Source: Owenia fusiformis (Eukaryota). Taken from it: a DNA stretch of 64,000 bases. Every line of letters starts with the position of its first letter. Positions within the stretch are counted from its first letter, which is position 1. This document shows positions 19,688 through 62,784 of the stretch, piece by piece. The notes below the pieces were generated by a model that saw only the letters and a program-made list of their open reading frames with translations, was not told where the DNA came from and did no database searches. Position numbers and translations under genes: made by a program. The DNA lies in contig CAIIXF020000001.1 in assembly GCA_903813345.2 (NCBI GenBank), positions 25,234,001 through 25,298,000 on the forward strand, read 5' to 3'.

Positions 19688-20219
19688 TTTTTATGTCACC
19701 ACCAAAAGTGGTGACATATTGTTATGGTCTCGTGGTCTGTTTTTTGTTACGGCGGTTGGTGTCTGGTATCTGGTCTGTAACAAATTCTTACAACTTTCAA
19801 TAACTTTACAAATACTGTTTAGACTGACTTCAATTTTTTTCTGAAGCATCTACAAGGTCTTAGAAGTGCATATCTGACTTAAAATATGAGATTTGACCTT
19901 CAATGACCTTCTCAAGATCAACAAAAAAAGGTCAAAAAGGTCTTTTTTCAACTTGCTTCAAATTGACAAAAATTTTTTCCAAATCATCTACAAGTTCTCA
20001 GGAATTCAAATCTGACTTTAGATTTACGATTTGACCTTTAATGACCTTCTCAAGGTCAAAACGGTCTTTTTTACTCTGCTTCAAATTGCACAATTTTTTT
20101 TTCAAAATCATCTACAAGTTTTCTGAAGTTCAAATCAGACTTTAGATTTAAGGTTTGACGTGCTTTAAATTGACCAAATTGTTTTAGGTGGTGACATTTT
20201 GTCATGTTAATGCCTTGTT
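19688..20219 (-). mobile_element. Helentron-derived (HINE/DINE-1-like) family A, copy 1
   Basis: One end AACAAGGCATTAACATGACAAAATGTCACCACCT, the other a hairpin TGTCACCACTTTTGGTGGTGACA followed by an A-run. Subterminal inverted repeats plus internal repeats. Confidence 0.7.
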
Positions 20220-32000: not shown

Positions 32001-35000
32001 GTAAATAGCAGGAGCACTTGGCCATGTAAATAGTGTTGTTGGGTTAGGTCAATATTTCACTGTTCGTCAAAAAACGTAATTGATTTAGCAAGGTTTTAAC
32101 CCCCCTCCCCCTTCTCACAAAAGTCAGTGCGCGAAATAGACGTCCGACATCGGCCATTGGCCTGACAAAATTATAGATGGCTTGTTTTGATAAAAACACC
32201 CAGACATTTTGGCCTGCTAGACATTTGTGGCATTCGTTAGATTGCCCATGAATAGAACTTACATATCAGTCCGGAAATCCTCCGAATTCCCTGCGTTTTC
32301 GGCTTATTTCATGACTTTTGTTGAAGATTGAAAAACATTTCAAAATATTTTTGTTTGGTACCGAAGCACAAGATATAACGTGACTTTCGATTGGCTGTTG
32401 TTGTTTGTTGAAATTACAGTGATTTTGATTGGCTATGAATGACTCATTTCTTAATTGTCGTTCGCAAATCGAGTGCATTATCAGTATGCCGGATGTAGGA
32501 AAGAAATTGAAAAATCGAGCCGGCATCTAAGTCGAAAAAGTCGGCAGTTTGGAAGTATTTTGGGACTCCGATATCACAAGGTAAACGAATTGGTGATAGT
32601 ACACCATGCAGACTATGTGAAATGCCGATCACATTCGCGGCAGATGCTTTATATTTGATTTAATTGACGTATTTCTGAATGTGATTTTGAAAAGTGAAAC
32701 TGAAAGTGAAAGTGAAACTGTCATCATCAGACGATTGTATCATTTTTAGTGTTCTGTCTGTCCCGTCCCGTCCCGAAAGTACCGTATCCCGAGACCATTT
32801 GTACCGATCCAAACCGTACCGAATTTTTTTGACCGTGACACCTATAATATATACCTTGAATTTTAGTGGAGTCTGTGTACATAATATGTGTTTTTGAATA
32901 CCTTGAAGCTTCTGATTTCTGAGCAATTCTAAACCGACCAAAATCAGTACAATTTAGTTTGATCAATATGTACATGTTCCTCATGTTTTTGCAAGGTGAA
33001 TCTAGGGGGGGGGGATCAACACACTCAGGCTGTTGGTTAAGTCATCAATTACAGTATAGTGAATGATACATGACATGCAATATGCAATTAGTTTTATCTT
33101 TGTTAATATTGTACTAAACTAAATCTCAATTTAGAGTGGTTGTGGAGAAATATGGTAAGTGAAATTTTTGGCCAGAGAAGGAAGAAACAGCCTGCCAAAA
33201 ATTGGCCTAAGAAAAAATGATATGGCTTGTTAAAATCTGGCAGGCCTGCCAAAATGTCTAGGTTAAAAAAATCCTTATTTCATGCACTGAAAGTCAAAAT
33301 GTTGTTTCGTGTACAGTGTTAAAGAATCAAAATGTTGATTTGCATGCAGTGTACAAGTACAACCCCAGCACACAATATCTGCTTCTGCTATAAACACATA
33401 TCAAATTCTCTATCATATCTGTTGTATATTAAATGATCATACCATTGCAGAAGATGAAACTCTGAAATCAATGTCTGTCACCTAATTAAACAAGGCATTA
33501 ACATGGCAAAATGTCACCACCTAAAAAATTGGTTAATTTAAAGCAAGTTGAAAAAAGACCGTTTTGACCTTGGGAAGGTCATTGAAGGTCAAATCTGAAA
33601 TCTTAAGTCAGATTTGAGCTTCTGAGGTCTTGTAGATGACTTTGAAATTTTGAAGCAAGTTAAAAAAAGACCTTTTTGACATTAAGAACTTTATTGAAGG
33701 TCAAATCTCAAATCTAAAGTCAGATTTGAACTTCTGAGAACTTGTATATGATTTAGAAAACAATTTAAGTCAGTCTAAACAGTATTTGTTAAGTTATTGG
33801 AAGTTGTAAGAATCTGTTACAGACTCCAACCACCAACCGCCATCACAAAAAAACGGAGACCATAACAATATGTCAACACTTTTTGGTGGTGTCATAACAG
33901 GGATTTACACCCTCCCCCCTTACATAATTAATTACGTTTTTTGACGCACACTGAAACATTGACCTGACCTCTTAAGCAATTTAAAGTACTCGCAACCTTG
34001 AATACTCCAAACTGGTGCAAAATACTTCTTGTATTTAAAACATACATGATCAGTTCACTTTGGTATGCATAACAATTTTTAAATCATAGGGTTGAAGGAT
34101 TGTATCAGATTAGCCATTGGTATATTCGCTAGAAAATCAACTAGTATTGATGTAATATTGTAAACATATACATGTTGGTAATAGCACAATCAGTTCAAGT
34201 TATTACCTGATTACAGCAGTAATATATTTTAAAGATCTCAAATGAAATGATTTAAAGTAAACACTCAGAAACCTAAATACTCCATACTGGTGCAAAATAG
34301 ATCACATATTTTAACATTTGTTTACATGATCAGTTCACTTTTGGAAGCATGTAATCTAATTTCAGAGCAGTTTAATGTGTTACCAATGATCATTAGTCTT
34401 ATGATGGTAACAGATATCTATCTTATCTGGAGCGTGTGGCAATGTACAGAGTATCTAAGTGATGGTGAATTGAAGTACTCACAACCCTCAAGTTCCGAAC
34501 TGGTGCAAAATATTTCACATCAATTTACATGATCAGTTTCCCTTTCAATATGTAACACTAGATCTGATTATATCTCTTAAACATCTCAAACATACTCAGA
34601 ACCCTAAATACTCCATACTGGTGCAAAATAATTCAAATATTTAACATTAATTTACATGACCAGTTCACTTTTGGAAGCATGTAACCCAATTTCAGAGCAG
34701 CTGTTGCAGCATGTTGATAAATAGATAGCTGGAGCACATTTCTTGAATTTAACATGTAATATAAATAAGTAAGAAAATCTATTGCAAGGGCGGAATTGCT
34801 TGATTGCTATGTTATTTCAAGGATACACGTTTTTAAAAAGGGCTAACTATGCTACAGAAGCCAAATAGCTGGCAGTTGAGCCCAAGTTTTTATAGAATGA
34901 ACATCAAAGTTATGAATTGATGCTATGGTATTTTATGAAATTATAACTCAGATAGAATTTAGTTCTTTTCAAAGGATATGATATAGATTCAGTCAATGTG

Positions 35001-45883: not shown

Positions 45884-48800
45884 TATTACTACGCATATAC
45901 AAGGAGGATTGGCTCCCAGAGTGCACCACCGATATTCTGTCCCATATATGGGTATGTCGTAATACAAAATTCGAATTCAAACAGCCGCCATTTTGTTCAC
46001 TTCAACATTTAAATCGTGAATTTTGGTCTTATTTCCAAACGGAAAATTCCAAAACTCACAAGAAATGATCGAGATATTGGTTCGAATCTTTTGAACTGTT
46101 TATTTTGAATTTATAGTCGGTTTTAATTTCAGAAAATAACGACATTTCGACGTTTTCATTGTTGGAAAATATCGAGTTTCGATCCTGGGAGCCAATCCTC
46201 CTTGACGCATATACAAATAAAATAATCCGTTGATCGGAAGTGACGTCAATATAATGCCTGGGTGTGTTCGTGGCGGACATTTTAAAATATAGGCCGATTT
46301 AAAGATTGGAGTGTATATCAATGCAATTTCTGACAGCCGCTTCTTTTTTGGCTTTGAGAAAACGTTTAGGCCGGTTTTAGAAATTTGTGCGTGGCCGTGC
46401 GGCGTTTTTCGACTTTTCGACTTGACCACTAGAAAAGAAAGCATAACTTGAATCAAAATTTACACATTTAGACATACAATACACCTGTCATTGTCTTTTT
46501 AATTGTTCCAAATATTTCCGCTCTCAACATTATGTATGCCTTCCTGAAACTTTTGGGTCTCTTCACGAGTCAATATTCAATTTACTAACAAATAAGATAC
46601 AATTGAGAATTTATTTAAGGATTCAGTACCGGGTCTATTTTCACCTCTGTTTGCGCAGGTTTTACTTCTGGTTTTAAAAACTTTAATTTGTTTTGATATA
46701 CAATGCGTATTCAACCTAACATTATAATGAAGGTCCATTTTTAAATAGTCACGAAGATTTCACGATTTTTTAATTCTAAAAAGAATAATAAGAATTCCAA
46801 AAGCTTTTTTGAGTTAACGAGTCATATTCCGTCCTTAAAGAAAAAAGTGAAAATTTGTTTTATTTGATTTCAAAATCATATACATGGACAGAACTATTGA
46901 AACTTTATACTCTTTAATTGTTATGACAGTTGGTTCAGATCTACTTTTTAAATAGAATATACATGAGTGTGTCTATTTTTGAGCCACTCTGTATATCTGA
47001 TACAATTACTATGACCTTATTTATCGCCCCTCGTATACGGCTCTTTATACTTATAGTTTAGAGTTCATCATAGAACAAGTCGTCATTAGATACAAGTACG
47101 AGAGAGCCGTCAAACATTTACGCAAGAGCATATACTGGTAAGTAAGACGTTTAAAATGTAACAATATATAGTTTTATGTATTTAAAATTGACAACTTTTA
47201 CCCAATAGTGAAAACAGTGATTATCAAGGAATCTGCAGTAACAAGGGACTACCATATAGGGGCAAATTTACGATAATTGATATTTCCGAAACCTGTTGTT
47301 CTAATAAAGCCTGCGTCATGTGTGTTGATATCAACGACATTTGATGTGTGCTATTTTGATGTCATCACAACTTGTTATCATAATCATGCGATACATATTA
47401 AAATATTGCTAATTATTTCTCAAAACAGCTAAAATTAAACTTTTAAACAAAAAAAACAAAGTTTTGTTTTGTTTGTGGTAATACAAACCCGGATAACAGC
47501 ACAATCATACAATGTTTTGATTTCTGAGCGGGCTGTATTTGATTTTAGCTATTGTTTGCGATCATATTGCACAATATAAGTACATGTAAAGTATTTATCA
47601 CAAAGTAAGATAATTCTATCTTGCTGCTCAAGCAGGCCTCTAATACAATATTCCTTTGATAGTCCTTGTGTGTATATATAATTTAGTTTGATAAATGAGA
47701 CATCGAATATATATCATTGATTGTTGTGCTTATTTTGATAATATTGTTGATTGCATCAAATGTCACTACTACTGTATGTCTTACTTTTCTTATATGTGTA
47801 TTGAGGGGAGAATCAGATCTCATCGTCGGTTCCCACGCTCAATCCCTACGTTCTATCTCGTGAGGACAGGTTCGAAGCTTATTGAAGCAAGATGATCAGA
47901 TCTAGCGAGTATTTTAAAAACAATTCCCCCCATTCAATATGTTAATCACTACAACAATTTATAACACATCGCGGATAGAATTTGTTTACTTCTTTTTGCC
48001 TTTCCAAAATTGAATATATATACTGGTATTCATTAATTTCGTTATAGCTCTGCCTCACAAGTTTTGTGAAGTTTTGACAAGTTTTTCCACAAGTTTTGAA
48101 CAGCTTGATTAACTTCATTACAGAGCAGCTTTAATAGTCTCAGGTACAATTCATGGCACGCGTAAGTCCAAATTATTCAAATGTCTAAATTGGAAAACAT
48201 TGACAGAAATTAAGAAAAACAATGTACATACTAGTACTGTACAGATTCAAAGTCCGGTAATATTTGACCCCTTCTTAAGTTATTTCATGAAAAACTGTTA
48301 AATCCTGGTGTAGAAAGAGAGCTTCGTTCCAGAATAGAATTATTTATGTTCTGAAATAAATCTGAAATCGCCAGCAATAATCAGAGATAGCGAGCAGGCT
48401 AAACAAAAAATTGTTTCAATTTTAGAATATTTTTGGCTCATTTCATTCCTTGTCATGTCTATTTTCTAAAAATCACAAAAGTGCATACTTTATTCAAGGA
48501 AAACGAAAGATTTTTACAATAATGTATTATTTTTCTATAAGAATGGTTACCATTCTTATTATTTGGGAGAATTTAAACATTTTTCACTCATTTTTGCACT
48601 TTGAATCATTAATAACTTCACCAATTTATAACATATTGTGAATCTTTTGGGAGATATTGTATTTGATATGGTAAGGAATAGATTGGTAGGTCAATTATGC
48701 ACGTTGCTTGTAATTTTGTCACCCCCTGTAGATCTGATTCTGCCTTTAATGTCAATCTCAAAATGGTCTAAACTCTCCGCCGAAATAAAAAACTCGCCAA

Positions 48801-49530
48801 CTTTGCCAATTTACAAGAATAGCTATATTGTATTGTGTGTATGTATATATTAATTGCCCTTTATATAAAGAAAATCATATTGTATTACATAATAATAAAT
48901 ATAAATTCCATAATAAAATTACATTAACCAAAAATCTTAATTTTAAAAAAGATATTCAGAAATAAAATTCAACAAAATGAGAATACTCCTGACCCTTCTT
49001 GCCCTTGTGGAAACAGAGATCAAAATAAGTTACACCTTTTCCTCGACTGACCGCTGAGCATAGAAATAAATACATACAAGGCATCCTAAAACTATGTAAT
49101 TTCAATATCATGTATTATTTTGGTAAGACAGTTTTATACTTTTTTGGGGGATAGGAATCCAAGCAATGAACAGAATTCTAAATGTCTTCAATTACGCTCT
49201 ATCGACATTGATAATGTTTTACAATGACCCATTTAAATCAACTCACATCGTATCATCTTTCACTAACATTCATATTCATAAACAGAACTATGGGCTAAAC
49301 CTGGTGGCTGGCAGTCGGCAGCAGTCACCCACATTTGGTATAAATTATATTACCATGTATACTTTCAAACCAGAGAGGAACCAATAATGCGTAAAGCCTC
49401 GTCCCTCCAAAATAATGTATGAATTTATGTATAATTTATCATGCAAATAACAATTAACATCGCGGATTGGGTGATATTGTATTTGAGATTGTACCAATTG
49501 TTCGCAATTATTGCACGAATCGTTTATCAT

Positions 49531-50438
49531 GCACGGACCTGGGGACAATTCGGGAAATACGGGCTGATCTCAGCTTTGAGAGTTAATTTTTGCCTTATTT
49601 AAAAAGCTAACTAGTTGTTTTATATATCATTTTGAGGTATTTTTTATTCGCATTTCAATAAAATTATTTTTCCTTCAAAATGTTGATGGGATCCAATATA
49701 TTTTTAAAGTTAAATATACCCCGACATCGTCAAATACGCTGTAAGACGTAACACTTTACGCTTACAGGGCTCGTTGAAAAAATGATCAAAATACCACTAA
49801 AATTTCACAATTTATTCAATGGAGCATGCATTTATGACGTCACAATTACTCAACGGCTACAGTTCAAATTGTCATATATGAACGCTTTTAAAAGTTTCAA
49901 AATTGTGTAGCCTAAGGTTTTGAAGGCGAATGGGACGAGCAATAGGGTTACCTTCATTTTACCTTCTAATTTAGGTCTGATTTGAAAGAAAAATTAACTG
50001 CATAATATTGTCATGGCGTTTACAAAACAATAACCAGTTTGTTTATTTTGCAAATAATATTAAAATAAGAGCTGGTTTTCGAGACTTGAAAATAATGTGA
50101 CGCATCGATTTTTTACCACAAATTCAATACATATCAATTTTTACTAACGCCCCAAGTGGATTTCTTGACCGTTTTTCAAAATTCAAAAACATTTTAGAAA
50201 TATTGTCCTCGAGATCTTGCTACCCTGTGAATTTTGTCATGATTAGATAAGAATAAAGTATTTTATATTTAGGTTGACTAAACTTGAAATAATGTTACGC
50301 TTGTGGTTTTTGACGTTTTAAGGCTGTTTGCGCCCTATACTGCTCATTGTTTTGTTCTGATCTTTGACGCCATAATGTTACGCTAATGTTTTGATCTTTG
50401 ACGCCATAATGTTACGCTAATTGTCCCCAGTTTCGTGC
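49531..50438. mobile_element. Putative non-autonomous DNA element with 20-bp imperfect TIRs
   Basis: GCACGGACCTGGGGACAATT vs AATTGTCCCCAGTTTCGTGC (18 of 20). Internal 30-bp tandem duplication at 50358-50421. No TSD seen. Confidence 0.55.
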
Positions 50439-51267
50439 TACGTGTCTACCTGATTAGATTGGCTGCCTTTAAGTTTGACAATACAACGAGAAAATTGCAC
50501 TGATAATTCGGACAAATGATAACCTTTGGATTAATAACTTGCACGAACCTAAAATGTGATTCATCGGCCCTTTACCTATCTTCAAATACAGCAACATGTT
50601 TTTCTCGTAGAAAAATCGTAGGATTTAATAAAAACTTAATAAAAATCTAGTATTGAAATACTCTTTGACCAAAAGGGAAAACGACTACAAAATAAAATTT
50701 TGAAGAGAGCTGGGTAAGGTAAAAGTTCTAGGAAATGACGAGTGATTGGTCAACGCAGATTTAGATTTAGATATTTATTCCTCTTCACCCAATTTAGTGG
50801 CAAGTGCACTATTAGAACAGGCAATGTTATCTATTAATCCAATGGGCGGGCCACCGTACGAATTTGAACTTATATATTTCTCAAGATTTCAGAAAATCAA
50901 CCACGCATATGTTCAAGAACAATATGTCCTCTACCTCTGTTAAAATTTGTAAAGATTTAGTCACAGAAACCAAAAGTTCTGACCTGCTGTTCCCGCCATC
51001 TATTCAAATTCCTTAGAAATTGGCGTATGCATCTGGTCAACCAGTACATGTCACAATGTTCCGATATTCTTAAAACATGTTCATTTCTAATGATTATTTT
51101 TTATCATAATACATTGTTATATTAGGATTTAGTTACGTGCGAGATGTTGATACCGTAAAAATGATTTAACATAAAATAAGAAGTAGTGTTCCATGTTTAT
51201 TTAATGTTCAGGATTAATCCTACTCTACGACGATGATTATGTTGATTGCATCCTTGTTCTCAACATA

Positions 51268-52331
51268 CGAGGGGTGATCAGGAATTTCTGGACCGATGGC
51301 TCTATTTTTGACATTTTTTATCCTTTCTTACTGATTTTTTCACATGATATAACCCAAATATATAGGATCACATCCTGAAAATTTCATTGTTCTATGACAT
51401 CATTATCCAATTATTTTTGTTACCATGGTAACTGGTGACGTGGCAAGGTGGAGCTCAGAAAAAATACCAAATTTGAAAAACAACAGTAATTTTATATGAT
51501 GTTTGGACACTGTATTCATTGCTGAATATGTGACATACTATATAGGTTGTATCATTTCATTAAGTATATTCATTAATGTTCATCTATTAGTAACTGTCAT
51601 TATTCTCCCATCAATTCTTATCCTTCAAAGTAGTTACCAGTACTTTGTAAGTATTTGTTATGCCTTTTCAGCCAGTCCTGAAAGACGTGATTCAGACTGT
51701 CTTTGCCTACTTTGTAACATTGGTGTGTGAATTCCTGAATGATCTCATTACTGTCCTCAAAGTGGATACCTCATAATTTGGTCTTCACTGTTGGGAAAAG
51801 ATAAAAATCACAGCCAGCTAAGTCTGGGGAATTTGGTGCCTGTGGTACACGGCCACAGCCGATGGAAACAATCACACTTTGTAGGCAAAGACGGCAATTA
51901 TCACGTCTTTCAGGAATGGTAGAAAAGGCATAACAAATGCTCACAAAATGCTGGTAACTACTTTGGAGGATTAATAATTGATGGAAGAATAATGAAAGTT
52001 ACTATGAACATTAATGAATATACTTAATGATATAATACAACCTATTTCATGTCAGTATGTTTGTAACATACTCAGCAATGAATACAGTGTCAAAAAATGG
52101 CATATTAAACTACTGTTGATTTTTCAAATTTGGTATTTTTCTGAGATCCACCTTGTCGCGTCACCGATTACCATTGTAACAAAAATAGAAGGATAATGAT
52201 TTCATAGAACAGTGAAATCTTCATGGTGTGATCCTATATATTTGAGTTATATTGTGTGAAAAAATCACTTAGAACGGATAAAAAATAGCAAAAATAGAGC
52301 CAACGGTCCAGAAATTCCTGATCACCCCTCG
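51268..52331. mobile_element. Mariner-type foldback MITE with about 400-bp TIRs
   Basis: TA|CGAGGGGTGATCAGGAATTTCTGGACCG ... CGGTCCAGAAATTCCTGATCACCCCTCG|TA. The arms stay alignable to about 51690 and 51915. Confidence 0.88.
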
Positions 52332-54849
52332 TATGTTGATCGTTTTTATATAATTTAGAATTTTGAGAGAAAGTTACGTAGTTTTGAAGTTTATATCTAA
52401 ATGAGAAGTCAATGTTGCTTAAACCAAAAATATCCGAAAAGATGCTATCTTAACCAGATTCAAAAGAATGTTAAGACCGCCTTTTTTCCACATAAGGAAT
52501 GTTAACGAAAGTAACTCTCTTAAAATTTGAACCATACAATAACATACCTAACATGTCAACAATTCAAAATGTTTCACTACCACATTTTCATTCAAGCTGG
52601 CGCTGCTACAGATTACTTTCAGGAACTATATTCACAGTTTTAAACATAGATTTTTTGTCCCCTCCATTTAGCGGAGGGATATAAATGTGTACTGAGGCCT
52701 TAGGGTATTAGAGGTGTCACTACGGTAAATACCACTTCCACTTTTTAAATGTATTTTCTAACGATTGAACGTAGTGAATAAGTTCGAAAATGATTTAATG
52801 CATTAACTGAAGTATTATAACACTTTTTGAATTTGGCGCTAAATGCGATACCGAGGCTCGAATTTGTTTGTTAGGTGTACTGTCGTGTGATTGGTTATGG
52901 TTATGGTTATGGTTTGTTCAGGTAAATTGGTCACTTCGGCTTCTTATGCGGACCAGATAGGTCGTTCACTTAATTTACCAGATATTTTATTTATTTTAAG
53001 ATAAATATTTTTTAATTTAAGAAAAACATTAGAAGGCATTTGTTAAAGACAGTTAATATATTCCAATATTTTACTTTAGAGCTTTGGAGCCTACACCATC
53101 GTCAGTTGTAGGTAGACCTCCTATCTAAATACAATAGATTAGGTACTTCTTACACTTCGTGAGAAGGGTCTCCGCGAAACTGACAAAAGTTCAAAACAAC
53201 TTAGATATGTTATTCATTATCTCATTTTATCAAAGTAATCTTGAAACTTGAAAATTTGAAGTCTTTAAATGTGATGATTACTGTTAATTTTGACAGTTCA
53301 TGTTTGGCTAACAGTTAAGTTACAGGTATAGCCGCTGATATATTTGTTTCACATCATTTAGTAGAAAACGGAGAGATAAACTGTTAAGTTTAGGAAACAG
53401 GTCAACGATTTATTGACTGAAAACATTTATTGCACATATAATAGTGTTCAAATGGCAAAGAAGCTACGTTAATGCTCGGTGCATTGATTAAGGATACTCG
53501 AGTGTTTTGTTAGTGTTTGAGAACGGGTGTTTCTTTGCTTTAATACTTTAAATACGAAGCCATGCCAACTTCAATGGTGTGTGTAGTAGATTTAAGTGTA
53601 TGTACTGTGGCCATTTGAGGTATGTATGTAAAGCTGAGGTCAAGTACGTTCTCCATGTACCATTTTTAGAAAAAAATCGCAAGAATATAGTCCCGTAAAC
53701 TGGAACTACTTTATTCGTTAATTTTCATCAGTGAAGGATGGATTTTACCGAAAAATGGGTCCCCATGTTGGCGTAGTGATATTTAAAAATCGATAGTGTC
53801 ACGATGAAGGTTATGTATAGGGCAACACAGAAATATAGTCATTGTATAGGCTAATTCGTTCGAAAATGGCGATATGTACCCCAGAACTTGAATTTTGCGA
53901 TATTTTTCAATATTTTTCAATCATTTACCGTAGTAACACCTTTGAAAGCAGTGGCCAAACTGCCCTAAGAAAAAAGTATTTTTAAAAAATGAATGAAGTC
54001 CCAACACAATTGTGATCATGACGAGTCAGTAAGCTTGTATGAATTGTAGGTACAGTTGTCATCTATTTGCAATGATAACATGCCATTTCTTCTAAAAAAT
54101 GCGGTTATTTGGGTTCTGAAGGAAAATTTCGAGTCAAGTGGCGTATTAATTTTGGCTTCATTTTTGTGAATTTCAATATCTGTCGGCAGAGATATGTTTG
54201 ACCCCTATTGAGTTTCGTGTCAAAATGTAGCATAGACATTGCTTTTGAACTTCAGATAGGCCAATGGGGTCCCATAAATCCATAACTCGAGATAAAAAAA
54301 ATCAGGTGTTTGCGCTTTTGCCCATTGACTAGTATGGTGACGTGAATAAGGGCTGTTTTGCCAGTGTTGTGCCTATTTGTATTACCTCCAAAACAGAAGA
54401 GCCCAGGCTTGTGAAGTCCGATCTTGAAGGATGGTTCTTAAGATCCCAACCTGATATCGTGTGATATCGTGTGTAATGTGGTGGACGAAAGTGTTTCGAC
54501 ATTTGTCATATTTTATTAAAGGTTCTGTCATGTTAAAACATAGCAAGCCGGTTAAAATACCCCTAACGATTATCTAACGATTAGACAAACAACAAACCAT
54601 GATAATTTTGTTCTTGTTACAAGAATATCATCATAACTTGAGTCGTTATGAAACCCGAAGTAAAATTACATTGCTTCAGCTGCGATTGTGTGCTTTTCAG
54701 TTTATAAGTTTTTAAATCCTTTGCGACGTTTTTATATAAATTATGCAGTGAAACTATAAAACATGAAAAGTTTTTTTTATTTCAAATTGATTCAATTACA
54801 TAATGATAAAGATTTTAACAGGAGACACGTGTTTATGTGTATATACTGA

Positions 54850-55420
54850 GTTTATAATTAAAAATGTATGAATATAAAATAGTACCTTTAATTTATAAGA
54901 AAGAGAGTATGAGCAACTTATTGGGAGCAGGAGCAATGGGGACACCAAACTGATACTAAAGATATTGTACGTATAATGTGTAACATAATGACATCTACTG
55001 AGGATATTAATATGATGAGTTAACAAATAAGGAAGAATAAAAAAAAATGTGTACTATGCCCTAATAATGATTATTTGGAATTTTGCTGATCAGGAAGTTT
55101 TTTAGTCTTGATTTAGAAATACTCAGAGAAGGGCTATTTTTTAGATACAAAGGTAGATTATTCCAAATGATTTGTCCTTGGGTTTTTATTGAAAACAATC
55201 CTATATTCGTTTTAAACGTTTGTGCATGTAGCTCTTTGTTTTGTTTTGTAAAATAATTATGAATTTGGTCATTGCGATAATAATAGTCACCGAAGAGCTG
55301 TTGGTAAATTGTGAGGTTGTTATACCATTCATACACAAATTGACCAATGTTATACTCGAAGATGCTTGCAATTGGGAAAACTTTACTAAGCTATACTGCC
55401 TGAAATTCAAATGTTATATT
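54850..55420 (-). mobile_element. 5-prime-truncated CR1/L2-group LINE remnant
   Basis: Minus-strand peptide HNYFTKQ..LHAQTFKTNIGLFSIKTQGQIIWNNLPLYLKNSPSLSISKSRLKNFLI resembles the C-terminal tail of CR1/L2 ORF2. It is frameshifted upstream. Confidence 0.7.
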
Positions 55421-55573
55421 ACACTGCACAATTTTGAATGATATTGTACAGCGAGCTGCACAAAACAAGAACATTTGGAAAAATACATATATCAAACAAA
55501 TTGAAAATGAACGATAATTCACTGTTCTATATTCATCATTTATCATTTCAGACGATATAACAACCAAAAGAAC

Positions 55574-58500
55574 ATGAAGTTTGGGAATACATTGCTCAGA
55601 CTGAGTGAAAATGACAGCAAGTATGGCCACCAATACATGCAGTATAAACTTCTCAAGATGCACGTTAAGGAGCAAAAAGGGAACAACGACCCACAGAAAG
55701 AAGTGGAGTTTGTCCGCATGCTTGAAAGTGAGCTTCAACGGATCAAGAAGCTTATCTCTGCAAAGTAAAGTTATTTTTGTTAAAGAGTTTTAGATTCTTC
55801 ATATCAGCAAAAAACGGCAGACTGCTAACAATCATGCGTCACAAATGTAAAAAAACATACTGTTGTTCTTTCTACATTTGCACATATCATCAAAACAAGA
55901 GAAAGTTATGTTACGCTTTGTACAATTGTCATCAATGCACGGAAACGTATTATAGATCATCATCCCGATTAAAGTGTAAGAACGCCAAAAAGTAAAACAA
56001 ATACTAAATTATCTACTCTAACGCAAGCAAGGCAACACGTTAAAATTAATTTGCTCAGCATCAGGACCTTTACTTTTATTTTATGTCATGCCAGAGACAC
56101 AGAAAGATACATTTTGGAATATGAACTAAGTGCAGGTAGAATCTGATAGATTAATAGGTTAAAGGGGATTCGTTAATGATTTAAAGCGAAACCCTGTTGA
56201 CGAGAATGTTTGCGTTTCCTTTTTAGAAATATCAAAGAGACAATTCCAAAGCATCGAAAGAAAAAATAAAACAATAAGGTTATATCGCAATGTTATTTAT
56301 TTTATATAAAAATGCCGAAGAAAGTAGGATGTAGGTACTATGTGTATAAAATTTGACGCGAAACAACTAGAGTTTTATAAAGTATATGAATTAATTGACC
56401 AAAGCATGAATTTGAAAATACATACACATAATGGTCCCAAAAACAAGCGAAATGCTTGGCCTGGTAAGTCCTCACACCTCTAACGATTAGTATGTTATTT
56501 TAGGATAGACGAACTAAAGAGTGCAGGACAAGGTTTGCAAATGTCGGTTAAAATGGCGGATATTTCGAACGAAATCCCTGATTTGCAACGTCTGGGGAAC
56601 CAAGCAGATGTCTTAGCGACAGATATGGCTGAAATCGAACGTTTTGTTTTCTACAACAAAGAAGGATTCCGTAAAATTGTGAAGAAGCACGACAAGGTGA
56701 CTGGAACAAGATCGTTTTGGTTCGAAGCCCAGAAGCACGCAGAGTTTTTCTCAGACTTAGCACACGAACTTGAAGGAATTCTTATCCAGCTCAGTGACAT
56801 CTATGAGTATATACGGGAGAAGCAGGGAGGTAACAAGGTGTCAGCAGAGCACAAAGTGTCTCAGGTATGATTGACATAGACCTAATTGCTTATCTTATAC
56901 AATTATATGGACACATCTCGTACGAAATAATGAACCATTACAAACAAACTAGATATAGCTAATATCCATGATAAAAATATATTGAATTTAAAATACATTT
57001 CAGGAAACATTCGAACGTAAGAGTACAAAATATTGGATAGCAATGGAGGATGCATTTCTACTGAAGACAATGCTAGTGAAGCACATGCCATTGTACATCT
57101 TCTCTAGGACAAAGCAAGAAGATAACAAGAGGATGGCAAACAAAAGGACAAGCATCTTACTTCAGGTAGAATTCATTCCAATCAAGTACAATGTTTTAAG
57201 AAGTGCAAGAAACTAGAAAACAGAGTAAGACTCTTCTCTTCTGTCTCTATTTTCAAAAAGTATTTATTGTTAGGAAAGCCCTCGATGTGCATGTAGAGAG
57301 TAAAAATCGGTTCATAGAAAACACTATCTAAGCAAAGGGAAAAGACCAAAAACTGTGAAAAGGCTAGCAAGAAAAGCAAACTCTAATTGTTAACCTGTCA
57401 TTAGAAAAATAGACCATTTTTATCCCAAAAACCATCATGATTTAACGTGAAAAAATAATGTCTAACATTCTCCTTCACCCCTTCAATCAAGAACAAATAT
57501 CAGAATCCAGGACCAAAACACCAAAGGACATTTCATTCATACTGAAGACAGTTGTTGATGAAAGAAATGACGATAATCATAACATCAAAAATAGTTGTAG
57601 ACACTAGTACTCGTAAAAGGAGCATTCGGTCTCAAATGATGTGGGATAGACGAAATCCAGTCTCGAAGCCCATAGACAATTCAAAAGGCCATCATCCGTT
57701 CGCAAAGCCGTCGCCTAATCCATAAAACACTAATAATTCACAATCACACAATAAAATGGTCATCGGGAAAAAATGTAAATGCTTTCGATCCCTATTTCTC
57801 AGCTAATGATATTATAACAAATTTATTTCACATAGGACCATGGTAAGAAGTTTGAAGAATTCAAATTTCTCCAAAAATCAGGCTGGATATCATCGGTCTA
57901 CTTCGACAGTACAGATCTCCACTCATACCACAGGCGAGTGGCCATGAAAGAAGGCGCTACTCTTATCCGTATACGATGGTAAGATTTGTTCAGTATAAAG
58001 ATATCTGACCAAGTTTTCCAAGAAAGAAACATTAAACAAACATAGAAAAAGAGAACAACGCAATGGCATTTTTATCATTCAACACATGTTTCAACAAGAT
58101 GAATCTTACTGTAGAAGTATTATATTTCATCCTGCATCAATAGAACCTGGTCAGTTATTCCGGTGGGAATTTTGAAATAAGGACCGGACCTCTCAATTCT
58201 ACGTTGGTTTAGTACGTGTAACTATGAATCTTGATGAATTGATTTATCTCTCCCTTTTGAAAGTTAATACTATAATCAATATCTAACTATATTAGTAGTT
58301 AAAGTAACCAGTGTTGGATGACTTATTCTACAGAATGAGTAACATATACATATTTCAGCTCTATATGCTCTTTACATATTACTTTTTCCATTTCCGTTGT
58401 TCAAATGCTTTCCAGTGTTTCAGGATAGGTTATGATTGCAGGTATGGTGATCCAGATGAATCAAGCGTTGCTGGCGATATGTACCTTCCACGTCCCCCAG

Positions 58501-61500
58501 CAAAGGGGCTCTTCTGTGAGCGGAAGACCCACCACGAGTGTTGGGTTGCAGAAGACAGTCTCAAAGAAAGATTCCCTATCAAGAAAAATAACATCACAGA
58601 CTTCATAACTGGTGAGTTGTTACTTAAAGTGCATCTTTAAATAGCTTTTGAAAATTGTTTATCAACTTCGAAAATCTTTTTTTTTTGAAAATGTGACTTC
58701 CAAGTTCTGGGAGATTCCCAATAGACCTCATGTTATAAAATTACTAAAAGTTAAGTATTTCTTGGACAGATAATATTTTCTTTTACTGGACATATTTTGA
58801 TTTGCATAACTATTAGATACATATGGGTGATATGAAAATTGAACCGCTAAAAGTGATGAATATTTAATTAACAATAACTGTCTACTATACCTGCCATGCT
58901 ATCTGACCCGAATGAGCCACCTGGTGGTGAAACTGGTAGCTACCTACTCATCTGAGTTATTATGTGTAAATTAATGGGTGATTTAATTGACCATAGTTTA
59001 ATCTTGAATGAAGGGAAAAAACCAGCAGCTGAATGTTGTTTGAGCTCAGGAGATAGTGCAATGTCTTTGGCTGAAGAGATACAGAAAGAGATATTGGATA
59101 ATAAACTTGTACCGATGGTGAGAACTGTCTATAAACGATCAGCATTTCAGCTAGAGGAAACCAATGATGTCCGAATAACGTAAGCATAGATACGGAAAGG
59201 TATAATTTGTAGAATTGCTGTCAACATCTTAATTGTTTATCTTTCTTGTCATTAGCCAGAACTAATCTTTTTTATCTTCTAGAAACGACAACATCAAAAT
59301 AGTTTTCCATCTGTTTTGTCATTTATAGCTTGGATCAAGCCCTATCGTTTGTCAATGAACATCCGAGTGTCAGAGATGATGCCACGTGGCATAGAGATGA
59401 GACAGAGCTTGAGAACAACGAGGACTGGATTAGTTTCCATGCAGCTGTTTTAGAAGTTAAGCTGAAGACTGCTTCCCCAGAATGGTTAGAGGAACTGCTG
59501 AAGTCTCCGATTATTAGAATGGTATGGTCCCTCTTATTAAAATCAATTAAAACCACAAAATGTACGTTGTATTACCAACGGGATGTTATTCACATATTCT
59601 ATTTTTTCTATTATAATCGTATAGGTGAACAAGTTTTCAAAGTTTCAACAAAGTTGTACATCATACAATGCTGATAAAGTGAAGATATGGCCATATTGGT
59701 TCGAAGATGATGAAATAAAAGAAGCAAAGAAAAGAACAAAAAAGGTATAGGAAAACTTCGTATTTCAGAAATTCTCTTTCCAAAATATATAGGATGTTAC
59801 TACATTATGTCATCATATTCTATACTGTCACAGTTTGCCATCGTCATTAAATAATTTGAATTTTTGTTCAATACTTGTCCGAGGCATTGTTGCGGAAGAA
59901 TATAAAATAGCTGAGCATTAGAAACTATTCAGAATTGCACATTTCATTGTTTTAATGCTCAGACTATGTTATTAGATTTCAATGGCAACTCAGATGAACA
60001 GTTTGAAATTTAAAAGGTGTTTGCTTAAAAACTTGAGTATTGTAATCGGTCTTGCTAGCAAATACCTCCTTTGATACTGGTTTACATCAATTAGTAATCT
60101 TTTGTTTTATTTAGATTAGACAAGCAAAGGACGAAGACGAAGGAATAGTCAGGGAGGAAAACAAAGAGCAAACATTAAGAAAGCCAACACCGTCATTTGG
60201 CCTTGAACCCGACTACGCATATGATAATAAGGCTTATGGCGATGATGCACTGGGTGACATAGAGATGGGGATGTTTGAGAAAAAGGCTCCAAGTGTGAAT
60301 GATGTCCCTGGTGGTACGATAGGTAGGCAGACGTTGATCTTAAAAGTAAAAACACATTCCAAAATAAAACAATAAATTCAAATATTACGATCCAAAAACA
60401 TATTCAAAAGGTAATTGCTTGTTGCTATCCATTGAGAAATAGTTTCTTGGGCACATAACAATATACTGCCAAAATCAGATGAAAAGATGAGAAATAACAA
60501 ACTATGAAACTGAAATTTTCACATCAATAGTCTATGATCATGATCCTATTTTGATTTAAAGGTACATTTGTATCAACTGTAAATGATAACCCTCCTGGTA
60601 TAAAAACCATCGATATGACGGAGCACTCATTAAAGAATGGGACAAGTGCGTACAGCAATGGAGGTACAGCCATTACGAAACAGAGAAAACGATTAGCCTC
60701 CGAGAACAAACCAGAAGCCGTATACAATGACAACGATGATAACACCAACTGCTTTGGAAAACCCCAAAAATTCAAGAAGGCTACAAAGCGCTTAAAGATT
60801 GAACCGAAAACATATTTTGCCAACGAAAGAACATTTATGCAATGGAGTACTGCTGCATTGTTTCTGATTGGTATAGGTGGCACTTTGGTTGGAACGCAAA
60901 GTGAGGTTGCAAGAGTTGTAACAATCGTCTTTTTCGCCCTCGCTCTTTTCATGGTGTTGTATGCCTGCGTGGTATTTTATGTAAGTACAACTTCATTTAA
61001 TTTCTTGAAGTTTAACGTTAGGATGAATTCGAAAACTAGTGAATCCTGATGGAATTCCCAATGGTAAGTTTGGACCAAGTTAGAATTACTTGAATCTATT
61101 TCACTGAAGCAAGACATCAGTCTGGCAACGTGTTGTATTATACTCGTATAGTTGACATTGATTAATCAATCATTCCAGGTGCGCATGGTTCTAATCAAAA
61201 GAGGAACATCGGGAAGATTTGATGATTGGTTTGGCCCTGCGCTGTTGACGTGCTTACTCATTACTGGCCTTGGTTTTTCATTCTACGCCTTTCACTATTC
61301 TTGGACCATGCTACGTGAGTGGTGCATTAATTCATATTTAAAACAAACACTGGTTAAATGCTCTCATAATTGAAATGAACACCCTTTCCTAATCTCCTTG
61401 TGGCTGAAAATTGTATAACTATATTCTTAAGAACTGAAATGGAAAGAACTTGAAAATAAATAGATGTTGATCTAAAATATTTCAGCGCTTACCGTCATAC

Positions 61501-62784
61501 CAATTCAGTACTGGGAGTCACCCGTGTGTGTTAAACTTCAATTGAAGAACAATCCGGTGTTCTTCTCTCCGAGTGGATTATCCACCAACGATCCAGAAAG
61601 GCGTTTGGCCTGGACTTGTGCTGACAACAGAATAGCTCAACTAGACCTGGACACTGGAGAGTTCCTGCAGGTTCATACGATTGGAGGTCTGTTCATAATG
61701 ATTTATAATTCTTGTTCGCTGAAGGAATATGCATAGTTTGCATACCTTTCAAATTCGTACAAGTCCGATACTGATATAAATCCCAGGATCAAACAAAATG
61801 CGGTAGATGTGTGGCACGTGTTTCAAGATTGTTATTAATGATAGATTAATTTTCAGATGAGGGTGTGAAAGATTTCGAATGTGTGACATTTGCAAAAGAC
61901 GCAGATGTGATTTGGATTGGTTCTGAGGAACCGGAGAATGAGATAATTGAATACAACATTAAAACGAAGCGGAGACTTCGAACTTTGTCTATGGAACCAG
62001 TATCAGGTCAGACACTGTTTGATTTTACTTTTTTAAAAGAGAGGTTTCTCTACCTCGGATGTACATTAGGATAACTATCATGTACAACATACAATGCATT
62101 ATCTCAAATTATAACGTAGATGATTAAGCATCATTTGTTCTATTCTAGGGAAAAGTACCAAATTAATGGAAGGGCTTGCCTTCATGGACTTTTACTACCC
62201 TCTGCAAGATTTACCCCAAAAGGTGGTTGGTAACGGGACATTCTTTACGCCGAGACCTCAGAGTTTAGGGTCATTTTACATCCCTGTGGGATTCGGAGGT
62301 GTTTCACCAAGATCGAAGATAAAGGTTCCAGCTGACCTAACTACTGAAAAGATTGGTGCCATGACAACTCTTGGTGATACATTATATACAGTGTTCGATA
62401 ACGCTCACGTACTTGTTGGCTATGATATGTTTACAGCGAAAATGGTGAGTATTGGGCGTTCTTTTGTCGTAAAAATATAATGCTTTAAAAACTAAGACTT
62501 TTACTATTTCATCAGATTTAAATATTATAACGTTTTCAAAAAGCTAGAGGTTGAGACAAATGACTTTTACATTTAGTAGTTGTTAACCGCTGCTGTTGGG
62601 AAATCGATACGAGGATCTATTATTGTTTCAGACGCGTTACCAGATTCCAGGCAACGAGAAGAACTGGGAAGGTATTTTGTTCAGGCCACATAGCTCTGGT
62701 ATGTGGGTTTACTTGGCCAAAGACAACCCACCAGAAATATGGAGATTTGACTTCGATACCAACAGTGGTTTCAAAGGATGTTAA
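55574..62784 (+). CDS. VTC4: VTC4-like polyphosphate polymerase (SPX + VTC + DUF202 3-TM + C-terminal beta-propeller-like domain), 15 coding exons, about 1022 aa
   Basis: Exons 55574-55764, 56504-56864, 57004-57165, 57836-57978, 58442-58611, 59014-59179, 59329-59521, 59625-59744, 60115-60322, 60562-60980, 61179-61314, 61486-61686, 61857-62006, 62149-62444 and 62632-62784 (3069 nt, phases match). SPX: MKFG, YMQYKLLK, FYNKEGFRKIVKKHDK. VTC: FERKSTKYW, ISSVYFDS, IRIRWYG, FCERKTH, SLKERF, MVRTVYKRSAFQ, VRITLD, AVLEVKL, KFSKF, WPYW. TM: KIEPKTYFANERTFMQW and FDDWFGP. The exon 6 acceptor and exon 9 donor are somewhat uncertain. Confidence 0.92.
58660..58955 (+). repeat. Dispersed repeat of about 300 bp, copy in VTC4 intron 5
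   Basis: Collinear with 35450-35780. Confidence 0.8.

What the first reader, a model, noticed from the sequence alone, without database searches (positions are those of the whole stretch)
55574..62784. Intact VTC4-type polyphosphate polymerase gene in what looks like an animal genome
Seen: a 15-exon GT-AG gene with SPX, VTC and DUF202 domains. Motifs carrying the yeast Vtc4 catalytic residues are present (STKYW, IRIRW, ERKTH, VRITLD, VLEVK, KFSKF), as are the basic channel residues in EPKTYFANERT. Established: VTC makes vacuolar/acidocalcisomal polyphosphate in fungi, trypanosomatids, apicomplexans and algae, while a dedicated animal polyP polymerase is not established and VTC is generally considered absent from metazoans. 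Inference: the surrounding repeats suggest an invertebrate, so this may be an animal polyP synthase, either retained ancestrally or acquired horizontally, with a possible role in phosphate/metal granules or biomineralisation.
Basis: partly seen in the sequence, partly recalled or inferred. Interest (0 to 1): 0.93.

Follow-up and report, generated by a model that had tools for sequence, protein, structure and literature searches.

The report
Polyphosphate polymerase gene in an annelid
A marine worm (Owenia fusiformis) carries an intact, spliced and transcribed gene for the yeast-type enzyme that makes polyphosphate, a gene that reviews say animals lack, here with an extra propeller-shaped domain.

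Summary
Window 55574-62784 (+) holds 15 coding exons with 14 GT-AG introns. Their translation equals, letter for letter, a 1022-aa protein of the annelid Owenia fusiformis recorded on a 62.2-Mb contig. One contig in each of two runs from different studies lacks all 14 introns, and shows a further non-coding exon 8.4 kb upstream.

The protein has SPX, VTC and three-helix DUF202 domains. It keeps 21 of 21 checked sensor, catalytic and channel residues of yeast Vtc4. Owenia has a paralogue recorded on a 40.8-Mb contig. The brachiopod Lingula anatina has three gene models that are named only by automatic annotation. A 2023 review states that within opisthokonts Vtc4 occurs only in fungi. Ten literature searches found no paper noting an animal VTC4.

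The four animal proteins form one clade. Its deeper position is unresolved: sister to a choanoflagellate-type clade in one tree, not in two others, and two AU tests do not discriminate.

It is a YjiK/SdiA-regulated-like beta-propeller, found in 30 of 181 collected VTC4 homologues. Enzyme activity, partner subunits and biological role are untested.

The parts
47107..47137 (+). 3' end of a non-coding 5' exon; its own start is not determined
   Evidence: 60-73 loose letters before 55551 in the spliced contigs match window 47107-47136 exactly. GT follows at 47138.
47138..55551 (+). Intron in the 5' UTR, GT..AG, 8414 nt
55574..55764 (+). Coding exon 1 (aa 1-63; SPX start). The exon itself begins at 55552 with 22 nt of 5' UTR.
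56504..56864 (+). Coding exon 2 (SPX, holds the GFRKIVKKHDK lysine cluster)
57004..57165 (+). Coding exon 3 (start of VTC domain, K193 = yeast K200)
57836..57978 (+). Coding exon 4 (VTC; R283, R285 = yeast R264, R266)
58442..58611 (+). Coding exon 5 (VTC; K314 = yeast K281)
58693..58953 (.). Repeat inside intron 5, with very high depth in all four runs laid; not part of the mRNA
   Evidence: depth table and loose ends
59014..59179 (+). Coding exon 6 (VTC; Y382, R384, R396)
59329..59521 (+). Coding exon 7 (VTC; E440, K442)
59625..59744 (+). Coding exon 8 (end of VTC; K465, S467, K468)
60115..60322 (+). Coding exon 9 (linker with no Pfam match)
60562..60980 (+). Coding exon 10 (linker, then DUF202 TM1-TM2; K654, E660, R661)
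61179..61314 (+). Coding exon 11 (TM3; the last base starts the C-terminal domain)
61486..61686 (+). Coding exon 12 (C-terminal propeller domain)
61857..62006 (+). Coding exon 13 (C-terminal propeller domain)
62149..62444 (+). Coding exon 14 (C-terminal propeller domain)
62632..62784 (+). Coding exon 15, ending with the stop codon. The 3' UTR runs on to at least 62941.
61314..62784 (+). Span encoding residues 757-1022: a YjiK/SdiA-regulated-like beta-propeller, inferred to face the organelle lumen

Best explanation
This is a resident, transcribed gene of the annelid Owenia fusiformis. It encodes a long-form Vtc4, the catalytic subunit of the eukaryotic VTC polyphosphate polymerase/translocase.

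Shown here:
- The exon-intron structure.
- A fully spliced form in two runs.
- The four-domain architecture.
- Conservation of every checked functional residue.
- A paralogue in the same species and relatives in a brachiopod.

Inferred from the yeast enzyme:
- The cytosolic SPX domain senses inositol pyrophosphates.
- It activates the VTC tunnel domain, which transfers the gamma-phosphate of ATP onto a growing polyphosphate chain.
- The chain is threaded through a channel made of DUF202 helices into an acidic, lysosome-like organelle.

Inferred from topology: the N-terminus is cytosolic and there are three membrane helices, so the extra C-terminal propeller sits in the lumen at the channel exit. 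There it could receive, bind, nucleate or trim the emerging chain, possibly with divalent metals.

The gene most likely dates back at least to the common ancestor of annelids and brachiopods. Retention from the ancestor shared with choanoflagellates is my leaning, but it is not established.
For: Host and residence:
- The exon 10 query hit P0001 at 100% identity over the aligned 86% of the query (the rest is intron flank). P0001 is Owenia fusiformis, on a 62.2-Mb contig. Paralogue P0002 is on a 40.8-Mb contig.
- The spliced translation equals P0001.
- Intron GC is 31.5%, against 34.1% for the upstream 55 kb; exon GC is 42.9%.
- 16 listed runs from 5 studies, all under one organism label, hold the stretch. 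X4 contigs cover introns.

Expression:
- One contig of X12 (3309 nt) and one of X15 (3273 nt), from different studies, each skip all 14 introns at GT..AG.
- In X19, a run on record as RNA, 1 read crosses each of two junctions.

Family:
- The best solved relatives are yeast Vtc4: 8i6v_E at E 3.1e-61, 7ytj_D at 1e-58.
- Pfam VTC scores 194.9 bits.
- 21 of 21 checked sites are kept in both Owenia paralogues. They are SPX Y22, K26, K129, K132, K133, K136; tunnel K200, R264, R266, K281, Y359, R361, R373, E426, K428, K455, S457, K458; TM1 K622, E628, R629.

Relatives:
- Lingula P0035 is the next-best hit after the paralogue, at E 3.3e-156. The next hit after it, Gefionella, is at 1.3e-85.
- The animal clade has support 99-100 in four trees.

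C-terminal domain:
- AF2 model with pLDDT 89.5, pTM 0.88, all-beta.
- Best structural match is 3qqz_A (E. coli YjiK): Z 21.9, rmsd 3.0, 216 residues aligned. Generic propellers score Z 16.5 or less.
- Atlas feature hits are SdiA-regulated/Phytase-like, score 0.94 with 191 shared features.
- 3 of 14 aligned members match PF13449 and 3 of 14 match PF06977.

Channel: four copies of residues 640-760 scored 0.38 against a best control of 0.00. The runs agree in at least 84% of contacts and partner pLDDT is at least 59. The tool's calibration was 21 of 30 solved pairs of one chain reaching the mark and 0 of 23 single chains. The pass may come from memory of the solved yeast complex.
Against: - No activity, localisation or polyphosphate measurement exists for this protein.
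- No Vtc1-like small subunit was found: 118 candidates, none at E <= 0.001. This was a word-index search, and the Owenia genome itself could not be searched. Yeast and trypanosomatid VTC need Vtc1.
- Whole-protein SPX scores below Pfam's cut-off (22.7 against 27.8 bits).
- Runs X12 and X15 are not on record as RNA (kind '?'). The one run on record as RNA gave only two junction reads, from 12% of its reads.
- Deep origin is unresolved. Animals group with the choanoflagellate-type clade at SH-aLRT 95. They do not group with it. They sit near the fungal/amoebozoan side (91) and in a polytomy.
- In the AU tests, holding animals with the choanoflagellate-type clade gave lnL +14.5, p 0.741. Holding them with the diatom-type clade gave lnL +10.7, p 0.677. 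Neither is rejected.
- Only about 40 of the 181 collected proteins carry an organism name.
- The propeller's orientation and role are inferred.
Confidence: 0.75

Rival explanations
1. The gene is a functional VTC4, but it entered an early lophotrochozoan by horizontal transfer from a marine protist (a choanoflagellate-like, diatom-like or other donor). It then gained introns and duplicated. It was not inherited vertically from the animal ancestor.
For: - Among the labelled hits, only two animal species, both lophotrochozoans, carry it.
- Vertical descent needs many independent losses in other animal lineages.
- The placement of the animal clade changes with data set.
- A tree holding animals with the diatom-type clade is not rejected, p 0.677.
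- The C-terminal domain was found in only 1 (strong) or 2 (one weak) of 15 rows of the choanoflagellate-type group, and in neither named choanoflagellate.
Against: - The animal clade is not nested in any sampled protist group, and has a long stem of its own, 0.39-0.52.
- Of the two constraints tested, the one with the choanoflagellate-type clade scored higher, lnL +14.5 against +10.7. That grouping reached SH-aLRT 95.
- The gene has 15 spliceosomal introns, and intron composition is like the flanks.
- Presence in two phyla puts any transfer before their split.
- Owenia is reported to retain more ancestral orthogroups than other annelids (PMC9977687, passages).
Confidence: 0.3
2. The protein keeps the VTC fold but no longer works as a polyphosphate polymerase/translocase. 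Without Vtc1 it could act as a triphosphate-tunnel hydrolase or as a phosphate-sensing membrane protein, with the propeller as the main functional part.
For: - No Vtc1-like partner was found.
- Lingula P0035 has lost three SPX lysines (M, E, Q at yeast positions 129, 132, 133), which shows that regulation can drift in this clade.
- The YjiK-like propeller has no known function.
Against: - 12 of 12 tunnel residues and 3 of 3 TM1 channel residues are kept in both Owenia paralogues and in Lingula P0035.
- These sites are invariant or nearly so across the 72 aligned homologues: 66-72 of 72 for tunnel sites.
- The membrane domain is predicted to self-associate through TM1, 0.38 against a control of 0.00.
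Confidence: 0.1
3. The locus is a contaminant or assembly artefact from a protist or fungus living with the worm.
For: VTC4 is typical of protists and fungi, and marine worms carry eukaryotic associates.
Against: - The record's contig is 62.2 Mb, and the paralogue lies on a 40.8-Mb contig.
- The window around the gene has animal-type mobile-element remnants, an rva_4 integrase and a HECT fragment, and the same low GC.
- 16 listed runs in 5 studies under the same organism label hold the stretch.
- The nearest non-animal protein is only 33-38% identical.
Confidence: 0.02

Closest known systems
Saccharomyces cerevisiae Vtc4, catalytic subunit of the VTC complex (PDB 8i6v, 7ytj, 3g3q, 5iig)
   Same: - Same order of SPX, VTC tunnel domain and three-helix DUF202 membrane domain.
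- Alignments cover residues 1-224, 249-493 and 648-748.
- All 21 checked sensor, catalytic and channel residues are identical.
   Different: - Yeast Vtc4 (721 aa) ends just after TM3. The Owenia protein continues for about 270 residues as a beta-propeller.
- Overall identity is low; fungal Mucoromycota relatives are 26-30% identical.
- The linker between VTC and the membrane domain is longer.
- The partners Vtc1 and Vtc2/3/5 are not found or not known here.
Lingula anatina 'vacuolar transporter chaperone 4-like' (XP_013413499.1, 973 aa; also XP_013422057.1 and XP_013378586.1, 487 aa each)
   Same: - The closest relative outside Owenia: E 3.3e-156, 38% identity.
- Same four-domain architecture, including the C-terminal propeller.
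- Forms one clade with the Owenia pair in all four trees.
   Different: - Three SPX lysines are replaced in P0035.
- The two 487-aa models are partial.
- Named only by automatic annotation. No paper found in the searches mentions them.
Long-form VTC4 of protists: Gefionella okellyi, Mesostigma viride, Cavostelium apophysatum, Gloeochaete wittrockiana, Coscinodiscus wailesii
   Same: - They carry the same C-terminal domain after TM3. A jackhmmer search found it in 30 of 181 collected proteins.
- Shared features are an N-terminal Cys, a WEG motif and, in most, a Cys at or near the very C-terminus.
   Different: - 18-30% identity in that domain.
- They are unicellular eukaryotes of several supergroups.
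- None has been studied for this domain, as far as the one search on it shows.
Leishmania tarentolae LtVBP2, a VTC-binding protein (PMC13375126)
   Same: It is a lumenal beta-propeller held at the lumenal end of Vtc4 TMH3. It co-localises with LtVtc4 and is pulled down with it (passages). The fused domain would occupy the same place here.
   Different: - LtVBP2 is a separate single-pass protein, and is described as six-bladed.
- The best structural matches of the Owenia domain are YjiK and bacterial glutaminyl cyclases, which I recall to be five-bladed.
E. coli YjiK C-terminal domain (PDB 3qqz); Pfam SdiA-regulated PF06977 / Phytase-like PF13449
   Same: - Best structural match to the C-terminal domain: Z 21.9, rmsd 3.0, 216 of 243 residues, 14% identity.
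- Atlas feature hits are to the same family.
- Weak Pfam matches occur in relatives.
   Different: - These are bacterial, free-standing or lipoprotein-like proteins of unknown function.
- P0001 itself matches neither Pfam model at E <= 1.

Membership tests
VTC4 (catalytic subunit of the eukaryotic VTC polyphosphate polymerase) | N-terminal SPX domain with the basic inositol-pyrophosphate-binding residues | tested here: met
   Residues 1-224 align to yeast Vtc4 1-231, domain E 2.2e-17. Y22, K26, K129, K132, K133 and K136 equivalents are all kept. Pfam SPX scores 27.9 bits on exon 2 (cut-off 27.8) but 22.7 bits on the whole protein. That these residues bind PP-InsP is recalled from the literature.
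VTC4 (catalytic subunit of the eukaryotic VTC polyphosphate polymerase) | VTC triphosphate-tunnel domain with the catalytic Lys/Arg/Glu set | tested here: met
   Pfam VTC 194.9 bits, residues 189-475. 12 of 12 tunnel residues are kept. R264, R266 and E426 are the positions that differ between chains 8i6v_E and 7ytj_D; I read them as engineered inactivating changes.
VTC4 (catalytic subunit of the eukaryotic VTC polyphosphate polymerase) | C-terminal three-helix DUF202 membrane domain with the conserved EPK...ANERT entry motif | tested here: met
   Pfam DUF202 38.2 bits. Residues 648-748 align to yeast Vtc4 616-716 and to Vtc1. K654, E660 and R661 are kept.
VTC4 (catalytic subunit of the eukaryotic VTC polyphosphate polymerase) | Synthesis of polyphosphate from ATP and its transfer into an organelle | not testable with these tools
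   Needs a biochemical assay or complementation of yeast vtc4 deletion.
VTC4 (catalytic subunit of the eukaryotic VTC polyphosphate polymerase) | Assembly with the small subunit Vtc1 (and Vtc2/3 in fungi) | tested here: inconclusive
   The word-index search for short relatives of residues 640-760 gave 118 candidates, none at E <= 0.001. The Owenia genome is not held. Self-association of the membrane domain is predicted, 0.38 against a control of 0.00.
SdiA-regulated / YjiK-like beta-propeller (Pfam PF06977, PF13449) | Match to the family profile above its curated cut-off | tested here: not met
   P0001 domain: 0 families at E <= 1. 3 of 14 aligned relatives match PF13449 (best E 1e-05) and 3 of 14 match PF06977 (best 0.00064). 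P0002 scores 21.3 bits against a cut-off of 27.6.
SdiA-regulated / YjiK-like beta-propeller (Pfam PF06977, PF13449) | Same fold as the solved member YjiK (3qqz) | tested here: met
   Z 21.9, rmsd 3.0, 216 residues aligned, ranked first of 48,161 chains and about 5 Z above generic propellers. Atlas score 0.94 with 191 shared features.
Kinetoplastid VBP2 (VTC-binding lumenal propeller) | Sequence or structural homology to LtVBP2 | not tested
   Known to me only from passages of PMC13375126. No sequence was available.

The most novel reading that the evidence does not exclude
Some animals never lost the canonical eukaryotic polyphosphate synthase. On this reading, VTC4 in Owenia and Lingula fills acidocalcisome-like organelles with polyphosphate. 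That polyphosphate becomes the phosphate and metal store behind the gut metal spherocrystals of Owenia and the calcium-phosphate granules and apatite shell of Lingula. The fused lumenal YjiK-like propeller would be the part that captures the chain at the channel exit and nucleates or trims metal-polyphosphate. It would be a Rosetta-stone fusion, explaining why kinetoplastid VTC binds a separate lumenal propeller protein.
Probability: 0.2. Interest if true: 0.88.

Novelty: new variant of a known kind. Interest (0 to 1): 0.72.

Why it matters
How animals make polyphosphate is an open question. Reviews state that the only known eukaryotic polymerase, VTC4, is missing from animals (PMC10657179). 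Work in flies, worms and mammals proceeds without a known synthase (abstracts).

An intact, expressed VTC4 in an annelid that is already a laboratory model for development (PMC9977687), together with relatives in a phosphate-shelled brachiopod, would give the field two things:
- an animal in which polyphosphate synthesis can be switched off genetically;
- a direct test of the proposal that polyphosphate feeds phosphate biomineralisation.

It also changes the evolutionary account. The gene was present at least in the annelid-brachiopod ancestor, so its absence elsewhere in animals reflects repeated loss or a very old transfer.

Separately, the fused lumenal propeller occurs in VTC4 of several eukaryotic supergroups. 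It points to an undescribed lumenal component of the polyphosphate machinery.

Tried and rejected
- Whole genome of the window: not held, so Vtc1, synteny and the paralogue's locus could not be examined.
- Rfam on the window: 0 matches.
- RNA holders: no RNA holder listed among the indexed rows.
- Vtc1-like short proteins: none found; weak search.
- Foldseek against PDB for the C-terminal domain gave only generic WD40-type propellers, TM about 0.45-0.57. The specific YjiK match came only from the wide VIA search.
- Pfam on single exons of the C-terminal domain: nothing.
- Earlier findings of this scan: nothing at this place, by sequence or by the seven-word query. The eight findings listed for 'VTC4' (of 203 holding the word) are on prokaryotic VTC-like or DUF202 genes and do not bear on this gene.
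- Literature: 'vacuolar transporter chaperone' + annelid gave 0 papers. Lingula + vtc gave 1 irrelevant paper. Lingula + polyphosphate gave 9 papers, none on VTC judging by titles and abstracts. VTC4 + choanoflagellate gave 2 papers: in PMC5714488 the passages read are not on VTC distribution; PMC4396506 was seen only as title and abstract, on vitamin C biosynthesis, and was not read. The six-term searches listed no paper that combines VTC with these animals.
- The careful (bootstrap) tree did not finish in the time allowed, so all IQ-TREE results are 'quick' trees with SH-aLRT only.
- The first tree attempt failed on MAFFT time.
- Considered and rejected: a contaminant (see rivals), and a pseudogene (the frame is open, spliced, and all key residues are kept).


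Full report
**1. What is in the sequence**

The window is AT-rich (GC 0.32-0.39 per 2 kb). Stop-to-stop frames on the + strand between 55.5 and 62.8 kb carry recognisable SPX, VTC and DUF202 pieces.

Exon 10 was used as a query. It hit a 1022-aa protein, P0001, at 100% identity over the aligned 86% of the query; the rest of the query is intron flank. P0001 is recorded as 'unnamed protein product [Owenia fusiformis]' on a contig of 62,201,769 bases. A 998-aa paralogue, P0002 (50% identical over that exon), is recorded for the same species on a 40.8-Mb contig.

Joining 15 exons at GT..AG borders, from ATG 55574 to the stop ending at 62784, reproduces P0001 exactly.

**2. Is it a real, expressed gene of the animal?**

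Sixteen listed runs from five studies, all under one coded organism label, hold the stretch or part of it. I laid four runs:
- One contig of X12 (3309 nt, study P4) and one of X15 (3273 nt, study P5) each skip all 14 introns at GT..AG.
- Both contigs carry 60-73 further letters before 55551. These letters match window 47107-47136, which is followed by GT at 47138. An AG ends at 55551. So there is a non-coding first exon and an 8.4-kb intron in the 5' UTR.
- X12 and X15 are not on record as RNA, but an intron-less form of a 16-exon gene is what a transcript looks like.
- X4 contigs cover the introns, so they look like DNA.
- X19, on record as RNA, was read to about 12%. It gave one read across each of two junctions and light cover of exons 7-10, so expression in that sample is low.

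Intron GC (31.5%) is close to that of the 55 kb upstream (34.1%), while exons are at 42.9%. Upstream lie an rva_4 integrase frame and a HECT fragment, which I read as mobile-element remnants. A contaminant is very unlikely.

**3. What the protein is**

The best solved relatives are yeast Vtc4 chains (8i6v_E at E 3.1e-61, 7ytj_D at 1e-58). Yeast Vtc3, Vtc2 and Vtc1 match more weakly. Pfam gives VTC at 194.9 bits over residues 189-475 and DUF202 at 38.2 bits. SPX falls just under its cut-off on the whole protein.

From the printed alignment I took the yeast numbering and checked 21 sites on a 72-protein alignment:
- six SPX sites: Y22, K26, K129, K132, K133, K136;
- twelve tunnel sites: K200, R264, R266, K281, Y359, R361, R373, E426, K428, K455, S457, K458;
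- three TM1 sites: K622, E628, R629.

Both Owenia paralogues keep 21 of 21. That these residues are the functional ones is recalled from the yeast literature. The R264/R266/E426 differences between the two yeast chains agree with that.

Both paralogues are therefore Vtc4-like (catalytic), not Vtc2/3-like.

**4. A fourth domain**

Yeast Vtc4 ends after TM3 at 721 aa. P0001 continues for about 270 residues.

The named bearers are the Owenia pair, Lingula, Gefionella (malawimonad), Mesostigma (green alga), Cavostelium (amoebozoan), Gloeochaete (glaucophyte) and Coscinodiscus (diatom).
- Structure: an AlphaFold2 model from a 14-sequence alignment is confident (pLDDT 89.5, pTM 0.88) and all-beta.
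- Foldseek gave only generic propellers.
- The wide VIA search ranked E. coli YjiK (3qqz_A) first, at Z 21.9, rmsd 3.0, 216 residues. Two bacterial glutaminyl cyclases followed at Z 21.3 and 20.3. Everything else scored 16.5 or lower.
- The Atlas feature search pointed to the same SdiA-regulated/Phytase-like clusters, score 0.94.
- 3 of 14 aligned members match each of PF13449 and PF06977. P0001 itself matches neither.

I read the domain as a remote, YjiK-like propeller.

With a cytosolic N-terminus and three helices, the domain should face the lumen; this is inference. Two observations fit that: a conserved Cys near its start, and a Cys as the very last residue in the animal proteins and several others. 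I did not measure any disulfide.

**5. A link to recent work**

A 2026 paper on Leishmania tarentolae reports LtVBP2. I read passages only. LtVBP2 is a single-pass protein with a lumenal six-bladed propeller. It co-localises with LtVtc4, is pulled down with it, and is predicted to touch the lumenal end of Vtc4 TMH3. [quoted passage not shown]

The fused propeller described here sits at that same place. Whether the two are homologous is untested, and the blade number may differ.

**6. Relatives and origin**

A full HMMER scan of 1.84 billion representatives gave 1845 hits at E <= 0.001, of which 150 were listed. After the paralogue, the best hit is Lingula anatina XP_013413499.1, 'vacuolar transporter chaperone 4-like' (E 3.3e-156). 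There is then a gap to Gefionella (1.3e-85), Colponema and choanoflagellates (Choanoeca flexa, Salpingoeca infusionum). Two further 487-aa Lingula models exist.

Only 30 proteins could be looked up by name, plus those named. Most rows are unnamed metagenome or run-assembly proteins, so other animals could be hidden among them.

The trees gave the following:
- FastTree on 180 rows (P0181 dropped as a near-duplicate of P0035): animal clade 99, deep place open.
- IQ-TREE quick, LG+C20, 72 chosen rows x 618 columns: animals sister to a 12-row clade that holds both named choanoflagellates, SH-aLRT 95.
- 45 rows x 754 columns: animals next to a fungal/amoebozoan/jakobid group, support 91.
- 72 rows x 471 conserved-core columns: polytomy.

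On the core set I ran two AU tests:
- Holding animals with the choanoflagellate-type clade gave a tree 14.5 lnL units better than the free quick tree, p 0.741.
- Holding animals with the diatom-type clade also beat the free tree, by 10.7 units, p 0.677.

The free search was therefore poor, and the data do not decide between placements.

What stands: one animal clade, not nested in any sampled group, present in two phyla. What is favoured but not shown: descent from the ancestor shared with choanoflagellates, with many later losses. The Owenia genome paper reports that this species keeps more ancestral orthogroups than other annelids (PMC9977687, passages), which fits retention.

**7. How it probably works**

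By analogy with yeast VTC, which is established knowledge and not tested here:
- SPX senses inositol pyrophosphates.
- The tunnel domain polymerises phosphate from ATP.
- The chain passes through a pore of DUF202 helices into an acidic organelle.

Yeast uses three Vtc1, one Vtc3 and one Vtc4 for that pore. No Vtc1-like protein was found here, in a weak search.

Four copies of residues 640-760 were predicted to pack through TM1. The score was 0.38 against a best control of 0.00; the runs agree in at least 84% of contacts and partner pLDDT is at least 59. The tool's calibration: 21 of 30 solved pairs of one chain and 0 of 23 single chains reached the mark. Because a like complex is solved, this pass may only reflect memory of it.

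The propeller may bind, nucleate or trim the emerging chain. That is speculation.

**8. Possible biology**

Lingula builds an apatite shell. It is described as having Ca- and P-rich granules and very efficient phosphate accumulation (PMC3824353, passages). Owenia fusiformis is cited as having metallic spherocrystals in its intestine (PMC10548688, passage citing Gibbs et al. 2000). That these spherocrystals are phosphate-based is my recollection only. The coincidence is suggestive, but it rests on two species.

**9. Novelty**

A 2023 review says that within opisthokonts Vtc4 is only in fungi and was lost in metazoans. Ten full-text searches found no paper that notes VTC4 in an annelid, a brachiopod or any animal. 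The library lacks most subscription journals, and supplements were closed.

The sequences themselves are public, and the Lingula models already carry an automatic VTC4-like name. What is new is recognition rather than data. Membership of the VTC4 family is clear. The fused lumenal propeller makes this a variant of the characterised enzyme.

Noticed in passing
window 58693-58953 (intron 5): A short repeat with very high summed depth in all four runs laid (up to about 82,000 in X4). Many reads run on into unlike sequence, so it is probably a high-copy, transcribed interspersed element.
   Followed up: no
window 18287-19216 (+): A 309-aa open frame with an rva_4 integrase core domain (114.3 bits), probably a mobile-element remnant.
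   Followed up: partly
window 23045-23530 (-): An open frame with the C-terminal part of a HECT ubiquitin-ligase domain (41.4 bits), isolated from any visible gene.
   Followed up: partly
window 19928-20159 and 33537-33759: Two arrays of about two copies of 112-124-nt units. Their consensus units look like reverse complements of each other, so they may be copies of one small element in opposite orientation.
   Followed up: no
P0035 (Lingula anatina XP_013413499.1), SPX region: The lysine cluster kept in Owenia, choanoflagellates and fungi reads M, E, Q at yeast positions 129, 132, 133. The Lingula enzyme may have lost inositol-pyrophosphate control, or the alignment is off there.
   Followed up: partly
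P0056 (EukProt label Rhodomonas salina): This protein falls inside the clade that holds the named choanoflagellates. Either the label reflects a contaminant in that culture, or the clade is not purely choanoflagellate.
   Followed up: no
P0038 and P0040 (choanoflagellates), C-terminal tails: Both have 270-460 residues after the membrane domain that do not match the propeller profile, so other lumenal extensions of VTC4 exist.
   Followed up: partly
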